From UHGV virus genome UHGV-0319989: a stretch of DNA of 38,413 nucleotides. The stretch is one strand, 5' to 3'. A program made the position numbers and the translations under genes. This document shows positions 4,593 to 5,417 of the stretch, piece by piece. Position 1 is the stretch's first letter. Every line of letters starts with the position of its first letter. Source of the stretch: a virus. The notes below the pieces were generated by a model, which was not told the DNA's origin, did not search any database, and saw only the letters and a list, made by a program, of their open reading frames with translations.

Positions 4593-5417
4593 TTGCAATG
4601 TTCATTAATATACGTCTCACAAATAATTCATAGATATTGCAAAATGGATATTACTGAGTTTCCTTCTGGAGTAATTGAACACCTTGGCTGGTATGTATAC
4701 CGATTGATTGATCCGAGGGACGGAAGCACCTTCTATGTAGGGAAAGGCAAAGGTAACCGCGTATTTGCCCATATGCGCGGTGAAGTGGCAGCGACTGATG
4801 ATGACGAGTTACTGAGCAACAAGCTAAAGCAAATTAGAGAAATAAGGTTAGCAGGACTTGAGGTTATCCATGTCATCCATCGACACGGAATGACTGATGA
4901 AAAGACGGCGTACGAAGTTGAAGCAGCACTTATTGATGCCTACCCTGGGTTAACGAATATCATGAATGGTGCTGGCAGCAATGAATTCGGCGCCGCGCAT
5001 GTCAAAGAGTTGATAGCAACATATCAACCCGAAACCATAACATTTCATCATAAAGCATTAATGATTTCCGTTAACAGAAGTGCAAAGGATTCAGAGCTTT
5101 ATGATGCGGTTCGATTTAGCTGGCGCATTAATGTCTCTCGCGCCAGCCAAGCAGAAGTCATTCTTGCTACTGTAAGGGGGATCGTTCGAGGGGTTTTCAT
5201 TGCTGATAAATGGCTCAAATCAACACGTGAAAATTTCCCTACGATGAAATACTGGGACGAGGATCCGGACTTTGAGGCAACACAAAGTTCTCGCTATGGT
5301 TTTGAAGGTCGAGAAGCCCCACCTGAAATAGCAAATCTTTATCTTGGAAAAAAAATACCAGATGAATTAAGAAAAAAAGGAGCTATGTCCCCGGTCCGTT
5401 ACTCACCTAATTTTTGA
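4593..5417 (+). CDS. GIY-YIG nuclease-domain protein with uncharacterised C-terminal domain
   Basis: [33 protein letters not shown] is a clear GIY-(x10)-YVG...R...H/E motif. Alternative start at 4644 (MDITEF...). No SD at either start. Confidence 0.7.

What the first reader, a model, noticed from the sequence alone, without database searches (positions are those of the whole stretch)
4593..5417. Stand-alone GIY-YIG nuclease-domain protein flanked by direct copies of the hairpin repeat
Clear GIY-YIG motif (YVYRLID...[14 protein letters not shown]) fused to a ~150-aa C-terminal region with no recognisable domain. The gene sits between repeat copies B (4376-4458) and C (5438-5478), as if it were a discrete cassette. 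Single-gene GIY-YIG defence proteins have been reported from phage satellites, so this could be a nuclease-based defence or a homing endonuclease.
Basis: partly seen in the sequence, partly recalled or inferred. Interest (0 to 1): 0.6.

Follow-up and report, generated by a model that had tools for sequence, protein, structure and literature searches.

The report
Known anti-phage nuclease PD-T4-3 (CMoRE)
This gene is a near-identical copy of PD-T4-3/CMoRE, a prophage-borne E. coli enzyme already shown to destroy phage DNA carrying hydroxymethyl-cytosine, so the finding is real but ordinary.

Summary
The ORF is real. Its likely start is ATG 4644 (257 aa), not TTG 4593. It matches the PADLOC model for PD-T4-3 end to end (E 2e-140). 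It is 253/257 identical to the crystallised E. coli O157:H7 CMoRE (PDB 9U75/9U8D). It protects against T2, T4 and T6. Every residue the paper names is conserved here. The gene with its flanks occurs in 853 of 5,426 complete E. coli genomes.

It is not a homing endonuclease and not in a satellite. It lies at the tail-fibre/pin end of a lambdoid-regulated, contractile-tailed (e14-like) prophage. In other strains that slot holds mcrA, an McrBC-like pair or a type II RM system.

The flanking repeats are real. They are copies of a hairpin widespread in E. coli prophages: the 3' flank and terminator of dinI-like genes. In relatives the module's homology breaks inside or at these hairpins. They therefore mark module junctions, most likely through homologous recombination, not a self-mobile cassette.

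Novelty: already known. Interest is low.

The parts
4644..5417 (+). PD-T4-3 / CMoRE coding sequence (257 aa plus stop). The TTG at 4593 only opens the longest ORF.
   Evidence: PADLOC PDLC04031 positions 1-255/256, E 2.4e-140. PHROG 5356 full length, E 2e-143. 253/257 identical to PDB 9U75/9U8D and 219/257 to 9U7U/9U7Z. RefSeq annotates a 774-nt CDS.
4644..4990 (+). [quoted passage not shown] Holds GIYxY-YIG tyrosines Y17/Y19/Y31, R39, E91/E93, acidic lid D52-D53-D54-E55 and tetramer-interface residues V92/L96.
   Evidence: Pfam PF22945 residues 28-110. Residues checked against both crystallised proteins. Roles of residues taken from PMC12923530.
5000..5414 (+). C-terminal 5hmC/5ghmC-sensing domain (approximate start; includes Y127). 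No Pfam model.
   Evidence: No Pfam hit. Domain function from crystal structures with 5hm-dCTP in PMC12923530. Only 2 substitutions against the O157:H7 enzyme in this part: Q169K and N197H.
4459..4643 (+). Upstream non-coding region that travels with the gene in all contexts. Presumed native promoter region (inferred).
   Evidence: Homology to the O157:H7 and O103:H2 loci starts at window 4447/4434 and runs through the gene. 821 genomes cover at least 80% of 4459-5440. The consensus scan found no strong sigma-70 match here.
4419..4457 (+). Repeat copy B: hairpin plus T5 run. It is the terminator-like 3' flank of a dinI remnant and the left junction of the PD-T4-3 module.
   Evidence: The same sequence follows intact dinI-like genes in lambdoid phages. 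Breakpoints fall at 4434-4457.
4447..4470 (.). Fossil tRNA-Ser anticodon-loop att core (CGGTTTTTGAGACCGGTCCG) fused to the 3' side of hairpin B.
   Evidence: In O157:H7 86-24 the module abuts 60 nt of the tRNA-Ser 3' part plus 17 nt of flank, 100% identical to the tRNA-Ser locus.
5440..5475 (.). Repeat copy C: hairpin between the convergent PD-T4-3 (+) and pin (-) genes. Likely a bidirectional terminator and the right junction of the module.
   Evidence: Fold z -2.5 (+) and -3.1 (-). The hairpin follows PD-T4-3 in four contexts. It also follows pin where PD-T4-3 is absent. It is absent after pinE of K-12 e14.
4266..4350 (+). dinI-like pseudogene remnant: C-terminal ~28 codons, an internal stop, no N-terminus.
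   Evidence: Translation ...[26 protein letters not shown] compared with mEp460 DinI-like ...[32 protein letters not shown]. Megablast hits to dinI features.
1749..1806 (+). Repeat copy A hairpin (1749-1782) fused to the 3' end of ssrA (1779-1806). This is an att junction separating a left-hand integrated element from this prophage.
   Evidence: 1779-1830 is 100% identical to the ssrA 3' end plus downstream flank in many genomes. Rfam tmRNA T-arm match at 1779-1795. In O103:H2 the same prophage end lies next to intact ssrA.
5478..6068 (-). pin-type serine DNA invertase (RefSeq start gives about 184 aa). It controls the invertible tail-fibre segment bounded by inverted repeats 6094-6113 / 7706-7725.
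   Evidence: Pfam Resolvase plus HTH_7. pinE annotation. Inverted repeat I1: 20 nt, 95%.

Best explanation
Window 4644-5417 encodes an intact allele of PD-T4-3, renamed CMoRE. [quoted passage not shown]

Mechanism (from the literature on a 98%-identical protein, inferred here by identity): a homotetramer binds DNA carrying 5-hydroxymethyl- or glucosyl-hydroxymethyl-cytosine through its C-terminal sensing domain. It needs two modified cytosines about 21 bp apart (C N11/N9 G). It cuts with its N-terminal GIYxY-YIG nuclease domain, leaving 2-nt 3' overhangs. An acidic loop (D52-D53-D54-E55 here) lies over the active site and keeps it off unmodified host DNA. Infecting T-even phage DNA is degraded and the cell survives, so this is direct immunity and not abortive infection.

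The two flanking hairpin repeats are the terminator of the upstream dinI remnant (copy B) and the shared terminator between the gene and convergent pin (copy C). Because related copies sit at many prophage module ends, they are also where this module has been swapped between prophages (inferred: homologous recombination).
For: Family and identity:
- Full-length PADLOC PD-T4-3 match, E 2.4e-140.
- phmmer against the PDB: 9U75/9U8D at E 4e-172 and 9U7U/9U7Z at E 1e-150, both over residues 1-257.
- Only 4 substitutions against the O157:H7 enzyme: T51A, E55D, Q169K, N197H. At two of them, E55 and N197, the window has the residue of the crystallised APEC O1 enzyme.
- Y17, Y19, Y31, R39, E91/E93, R80, V92, L96 and Y127 are identical, and the acidic loop is DDDE as in APEC O1.

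Published function:
- PMC12923530 shows protection against T2/T4/T6, cleavage of 5hmC/5ghmC DNA only, T4(C) resistance, the cleavage pattern, the tetramer, the autoinhibitory loop and direct (non-Abi) defence.
- Independent support comes from deletion in the native host NILS69 and from a Capnocytophaga homologue.

Single-gene module:
- Only the gene plus about 190 nt upstream and the hairpin downstream are shared between the window, a lambda-like prophage, O157:H7 and O103:H2.

Prevalence:
- 853 of 5,426 complete E. coli genomes.

Terminator reading of the hairpins:
- G+C-rich stems followed by T-runs, z -3.9 to -6.0 in the best-preserved copies.
- Positions after dinI, sitD, a retron Ec48 effector and PD-T4-3.
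Against: No activity was measured for this exact allele. No strong sigma-70 consensus and no obvious Shine-Dalgarno sequence were found upstream of ATG 4644, so the expression level is unknown; the APEC O1 allele is weakly expressed from its native promoter. The simple terminator scan did not call hairpins B or C, whose loops exceed its 8-nt limit. Copy B folds no better than shuffled sequence. Recombination at the hairpins is inferred from breakpoints only.
Confidence: 0.96

Rival explanations
1. It is a GIY-YIG homing endonuclease: a selfish gene that cuts a cognate allele lacking it and copies itself in.
For: Weak PHROG hit to a homing-endonuclease family (phrog_314, E 0.002). Some distant homologues in jumbo phages are annotated 'putative homing nuclease'.
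Against: The gene is not inside an intron, an intein or a conserved gene. It lies in a variable accessory slot whose neighbours differ between strains. It has no NUMOD, zinc-finger or HTH DNA-binding modules. The family degrades modified DNA across the whole T4 genome, not a single site. It is 98% identical to the characterised defence enzyme.
Confidence: 0.01
2. The gene is a site-specifically mobile cassette whose hairpin repeats are recombination sites used by a recombinase, for example the adjacent Pin invertase or an integrase.
For: Module breakpoints coincide with hairpins B and C in several genomes. Hairpins A and B are each fused to a tRNA/tmRNA-derived att core. A serine recombinase gene lies 3 nt from hairpin C.
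Against: The repeats are direct, diverged and of unequal length (about 105 nt against 36 nt). They bear no resemblance to the 20-nt inverted crossover sites of the Pin system at 6094-6113 / 7706-7725. No target-site duplication is present. The same sequence follows many unrelated genes in 4,757 genomes. pinE of K-12 lacks the hairpin. Breakpoints are spread over 4434-4457 and 5438-5478 rather than at one position.
Confidence: 0.03
3. The gene is a decayed or silent passenger in a defective prophage end and no longer defends.
For: Its neighbours include a dinI pseudogene and att-site fossils. No good promoter or RBS consensus was found.
Against: The reading frame is intact and full length. All named functional residues are conserved. 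The upstream ~190 nt is conserved with the O157:H7 locus; an O157:H7 allele cloned under its native promoter gave about 5 logs of protection. The gene is active in a native clinical isolate.
Confidence: 0.03

Closest known systems
PD-T4-3 / CMoRE of E. coli O157:H7 (PDB 9U75, 9U8D) and APEC O1 (9U7U, 9U7Z); first found in ECOR68 (Vassallo et al. 2022, as cited in PMC12923530)
   Same: Same length, same two-domain architecture, 253/257 and 219/257 identical residues. Same GIYxY-YIG motif, acidic lid, tetramer-interface residues and 5hmC-contact residue. Same single-gene organisation, and the same pinE neighbour as in O157:H7.
   Different: Four conservative or allelic substitutions (T51, E55, Q169, N197). 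Here an extra BRO-N / XRE / ImmA / dinI-remnant block lies upstream.
McrA of the e14 prophage (E. coli K-12), a type IV methyl/hydroxymethyl-cytosine-directed restriction enzyme
   Same: Same kind of function (modification-dependent restriction) and the same genomic slot: immediately beyond pinE at the end of an e14-type prophage.
   Different: Unrelated protein: HNH nuclease, not GIY-YIG. It is co-oriented with pinE rather than convergent, and no hairpin C lies between them.
UvrC N-terminal / LEM-3-like GIY-YIG nuclease domains
   Same: The catalytic fold. Pfam LEM-3_GIY-YIG E 2e-14. The paper reports UvrC as the closest structure.
   Different: An extra tyrosine (GIYxY), a 15-residue acidic insertion, and fusion to a modification-sensing domain that has no detectable homologues.
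I-TevI-type GIY-YIG homing endonucleases
   Same: They share the GIY-YIG catalytic superfamily.
   Different: No linker or DNA-binding modules of the I-TevI type, no intron or free-standing homing context, no single target site.

Membership tests
PD-T4-3 / CMoRE | Full-length similarity to the family profile and to characterised members | tested here: met
   PADLOC PDLC04031 positions 1-255/256, E 2.4e-140. 98.4% identity to 9U75 and 85% to 9U7U over all 257 residues.
PD-T4-3 / CMoRE | GIYxY-YIG motif (Y17, Y19, Y31) and the conserved catalytic Arg/Glu of the GIY-YIG fold | tested here: met
   Y17, Y19, Y31, R39 and E91/E93 are identical in the window protein and both crystallised enzymes. The motif definition is from PMC12923530; the paper's text does not number the Arg and Glu.
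PD-T4-3 / CMoRE | Negatively charged autoinhibitory loop with four consecutive acidic residues | tested here: met
   D52-D53-D54-E55, the same as APEC O1 (DDDE); O157:H7 has DDDD. Role.
PD-T4-3 / CMoRE | C-terminal modification-sensing domain (Y127 contact) and tetramer-interface residues (V92, L96) | tested here: met
   Y127, V92, L96 and R80 are identical. Only Q169 and N197 differ from the O157:H7 enzyme in the C-terminal half.
PD-T4-3 / CMoRE | Single-component system (no obligatory partner gene) | tested here: met
   Left neighbours differ in four contexts: dinI remnant, tRNA-Ser fragment/AraC, type II RM, and a lambda-like prophage with retron Ec48. The right neighbour is pin or tfa.
PD-T4-3 / CMoRE | Cleaves 5hmC/5ghmC DNA and protects against T-even phages | not testable with these tools
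   Shown for the O157:H7, APEC O1 and Klebsiella alleles. Inferred here from 98% identity.
GIY-YIG homing endonuclease | Located in an intron or intein, or free-standing between conserved genes with a cognate empty allele; I-TevI-like DNA-binding modules | tested here: not met
   The gene lies in a variable prophage accessory slot. No DNA-binding modules in Pfam.
Site-specific gene cassette (integron-, IS- or invertase-mobilised) | Defined recombination sites of equal structure at both ends, own or linked recombinase acting on them, target-site duplication | tested here: not met
   The repeats are unequal (about 105 nt against 36 nt), diverged, unlike the Pin crossover inverted repeats, and ubiquitous after unrelated genes. 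Recombinase action itself is not testable here.
Moron (promoter-gene-terminator unit in a prophage) | Autonomous gene with its own upstream region and terminator, inserted between phage modules, present or absent among related prophages | tested here: met
   The conserved unit 4434/4447-5478 moves between prophage types. A terminator-like hairpin follows it. pin-bearing relatives lack it or carry other cargo. Promoter activity was not tested.

The most novel reading that the evidence does not exclude
The conserved dinI-flank hairpin is found here fused to an ssrA att core (copy A), to a fossil tRNA-Ser att core (copy B), and lying between PD-T4-3 and pin (copy C). It could act as a portable 'linker' at which prophages with different integration sites and tail types exchange restriction cargo: mcrA, McrBC-like, type II RM, PD-T4-3. 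The pin-proximal prophage end would then be a dedicated hotspot for modification-dependent restriction.

A second, weaker option: the co-travelling CapH/CapP-like XRE-peptidase pair puts PD-T4-3 or the BRO-N gene under DNA-damage control in this lineage.
Probability: 0.15. Interest if true: 0.3.

Novelty: already known. Interest (0 to 1): 0.08.

Why it matters
It matters little for discovery. The protein, its structure, its substrate (5hmC/5ghmC DNA) and its anti-T-even role are published, and the gene is in about 16% of complete E. coli genomes.

Its value here is as annotation. It labels the window's left end as a prophage defence slot. It shows that the unassigned C-terminal domain is the known hmC sensor. 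It also explains the repeats as shared terminator/junction sequences.

The context gives a modest extra point. The slot beyond pin repeatedly carries restriction systems aimed at modified DNA, which fits the idea that prophages protect their hosts from T-even phages.

Tried and rejected
- NCBIfam gave no hit.
- Rfam at gathering thresholds found nothing in the window. At permissive thresholds the only relevant match was the ssrA T-arm at 1779-1795. An apparent 200-nt tmRNA match (1600-1806) disappeared once upstream sequence was supplied, so copy A is not a tmRNA-derived domain beyond the last ~28 nt.
- ARAGORN found no tRNA or tmRNA gene.
- Megablast against 50,697 phage records found no DNA-level copy of the gene, only pin and dinI flanks. 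tblastn found only 38-45% identical homologues, mostly in jumbo phages.
- The main text of Vassallo et al. 2022 does not contain the string 'PD-T4-3'. The link to ECOR68 therefore rests on the CMoRE paper's citation.
- The consensus promoter/terminator scan found no more sites than shuffled sequence gave. It did not call hairpins B or C, whose loops exceed its limit.
- I did not run structure prediction or fold search, because a solved structure at 98% identity makes them redundant.
- I considered and rejected Pin-mediated mobility of the cassette; the crossover inverted repeats are unrelated to the hairpins.

Full report
**Observation.** The ORF 4593..5417 (+) is present. Its TTG is only the first possible start. 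RefSeq annotations of the identical gene and the crystallised proteins begin at MDITEF, which is ATG 4644 and gives 257 aa. Pfam finds a LEM-3-like GIY-YIG domain (PF22945, E 2e-14, residues 28-110) and nothing for the C-terminal ~150 residues.

The repeats are real too. The core TTCTTGCATACRACGTGC occurs three times on the + strand, at 1759, 4429 and 5453. That compares with 0.11 expected, and no shuffle of 100 reached three. Copies A and B align over about 105 nt. Copy C shares about 36 nt.

**Identity.** The protein matches the PADLOC model for PD-T4-3 over the whole profile (positions 1-255/256, E 2.4e-140). It matches PHROG 5356 in the same way. Against the sequences of all PDB chains it hits two entries over residues 1-257:
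- 9U75/9U8D: E 4e-172, 253/257 identical.
- 9U7U/9U7Z: E 1e-150, 219/257 identical.

These are the E. coli O157:H7 and APEC O1 'CMoRE' proteins of Liu et al., Nat Commun 2026 (PMC12923530). That paper states that CMoRE is the system previously called PD-T4-3, first found in E. coli ECOR68.

**Mechanism (from that paper; inferred for this allele by identity).**
- It protects E. coli about 10^5-fold against T2, T4 and T6. It acts by direct immunity, not abortive infection.
- It binds and cuts DNA containing 5hmC or glucosyl-5hmC, but not C or 5mC. T4 carrying unmodified cytosine escapes.
- Cleavage follows C N11/N9 G with 2-nt 3' overhangs and needs two modified sites.
- The protein is a tetramer. 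The N-terminal domain is a UvrC-like GIY-YIG nuclease with an extra tyrosine (GIYxY-YIG: Y17, Y19, Y31).
- A 15-residue acidic loop covers the active site. Replacing its four consecutive acidic residues with alanine makes the enzyme cut ordinary DNA and become toxic.
- The C-terminal domain binds 5hm-dCTP, with a contact through Y127, and has no detectable homologues.

In the window protein Y17, Y19, Y31, R39, E91/E93, R80, V92, L96 and Y127 are all identical to both crystallised enzymes. The acidic run is D52-D53-D54-E55, as in APEC O1. The four differences from the O157:H7 enzyme are T51A, E55D, Q169K and N197H. At E55 and N197 the window carries the APEC O1 residue.

Two further papers agree. 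Deleting PD-T4-3 in the clinical isolate NILS69 sensitises it to Tevenvirinae. A 48%-identical Capnocytophaga homologue cuts modified T4 DNA but not T4-GT7 DNA. The catalytic residues are present, and homologues are not intron- or intein-associated.

**Prevalence and context.** The gene with its flanks (4459-5440) is found at 95% identity or more in almost all (839 of 858) matching records, which come from 853 of 5,426 complete E. coli genomes. The window is an e14-like temperate prophage (inferred from the shared ymfQ, tfaE and pinE neighbours in K-12 e14). It carries:
- lambdoid-type regulation: S24 repressor, CII, KilA-N and DUF968 genes;
- an orphan DNA methylase;
- a contractile tail (sheath, baseplate J/gp47 and related genes);
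- an invertible tail-fibre segment with a pin invertase.

PD-T4-3 is convergent with pin at the very end of the structural arm. The PD-T4-3/hairpin C/pin junction is contiguous in 577 genomes. Other strains show different content in this slot:
- K-12 e14: pinE is followed by mcrA, another type IV enzyme.
- Strain EC96: a pin remnant is followed by an McrBC-like pair.
- UPEC957C: small genes of unknown function.
- O103:H2: the order is ssrA, type II restriction enzyme, cytosine methylase, PD-T4-3, pinE.
- NS-NP030: the block BRO-N/XRE/ImmA/dinI-remnant/PD-T4-3 is 99.4% identical to the window. There it sits after the tail-fibre assembly gene of a lambda-like prophage, beside a retron Ec48.

So the gene is a moron in a prophage defence hotspot. 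It is not a satellite gene and not a homing element.

**The repeats.** Copy B is the 3' flank of a dinI-like pseudogene. Translation of the window gives ...[26 protein letters not shown]. The intact mEp460 DinI-like protein reads ...[32 protein letters not shown]. The same flank with its hairpin and T-run follows dinI in many lambdoid phages.

The sequence family occurs in 4,757 of 5,426 E. coli genomes, with up to 7 copies per genome. It is found after dinI, sitD, a retron Ec48 effector, a satellite-type capsid gene and PD-T4-3. Well-preserved copies are strong G+C-rich hairpins with T-runs (z -3.9 and -6.0). In the window, copy C is moderately stable on both strands (z -2.5 and -3.1). Copies B and A are degraded. 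I read them as intrinsic terminators. This is inferred and was not shown.

The junctions carry more information:
- Copy A is fused to the last ~28 nt of ssrA plus its native downstream flank. This is an att junction.
- Copy B is fused to a 20-nt fossil of the tRNA-Ser anticodon stem-loop. In O157:H7 the PD-T4-3 module abuts 60 nt of tRNA-Ser at exactly that point.
- Homology between the window and the other PD-T4-3 contexts begins at 4434-4450, inside or at the edge of hairpin B. It ends at 5438 or 5478, the two edges of hairpin C.

The 'discrete cassette' impression therefore has a basis: the hairpins are where modules have been joined. But the repeats are unequal and diverged. They are unrelated to the Pin crossover sites at 6094-6113 / 7706-7725. 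They are shared with many unrelated genes. Homologous recombination between conserved terminator or att-proximal sequences is the economical explanation. Site-specific cassette mobility is unlikely.

**Verdict.** The only mildly new points are contextual: the pin-proximal slot as a recurring home for modification-dependent restriction, and hairpin/att fossils as junctions.

Noticed in passing
window 3039-3953 (+), with 1971-2732 (-): An XRE-type HTH protein and an ImmA/IrrE M78 metallopeptidase match the PADLOC CapH (E 1e-10) and CapP (E 5e-15) models. In characterised systems CapH/CapP is a DNA-damage-responsive repressor/protease pair that controls defence operons (my own knowledge, not checked in the papers). 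They are divergent from a BRO-N-domain gene. The block travels with PD-T4-3 into a lambda-like prophage. What the pair regulates here is unknown.
   Followed up: partly
window 1-1806: The left end belongs to a different integrated element; matching genomes annotate 'capsid protein' and 'integrase' there. It ends at an ssrA-derived att junction (1779-1806). This prophage is therefore in tandem with a satellite-like island at ssrA. The ssrA gene itself lies outside the window.
   Followed up: partly
window 4447-4470; L006 5930-6006: A fossil tRNA-Ser anticodon-loop att core sits directly upstream of the PD-T4-3 promoter region. In O157:H7 86-24 the same point abuts 60 nt of tRNA-Ser plus 17 nt of its flank. 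This suggests an ancestor prophage that carried PD-T4-3 as its terminal gene next to a tRNA-Ser att site.
   Followed up: partly
K-12 e14 (L004 5686-7180), EC96 (L009 1614-5484), O103:H2 (L007 3107-7575), UPEC957C (L008): The slot just beyond the pin invertase holds different restriction cargo in different strains: mcrA, an McrBC-like pair, or type II RM plus PD-T4-3. Three of the four target modified DNA.
   Followed up: partly
window 28882-31271 (+): Two genes lie on the strand opposite to the surrounding phage genes: a 388-aa NA37/YejK-like nucleoid-associated protein (Pfam E 4e-50) and a 408-aa protein with no Pfam or PADLOC hit. They sit beside an orphan N6/N4 DNA methylase (27240-28292, -). 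This may be another moron or defence pair.
   Followed up: no
phage records H193-H207 (e.g. Serratia phage Moabite 6406-7161; Pseudomonas phage OBP 158703-159449): Full-length homologues of PD-T4-3 (38-45% identity) are encoded by lytic jumbo phages of Serratia, Pectobacterium, Pantoea and Pseudomonas, variously annotated as endonuclease or 'homing nuclease'. They might serve in competition between phages.
   Followed up: no
window 3940-4222 (+): Two small overlapping ORFs (49 and 47 aa), annotated as hypothetical proteins in RefSeq, lie between the ImmA-like gene and the dinI remnant. They have no family hits. A strong terminator-like hairpin lies on the minus strand at 3989-3955, and another on the plus strand at 4237-4255.
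   Followed up: no
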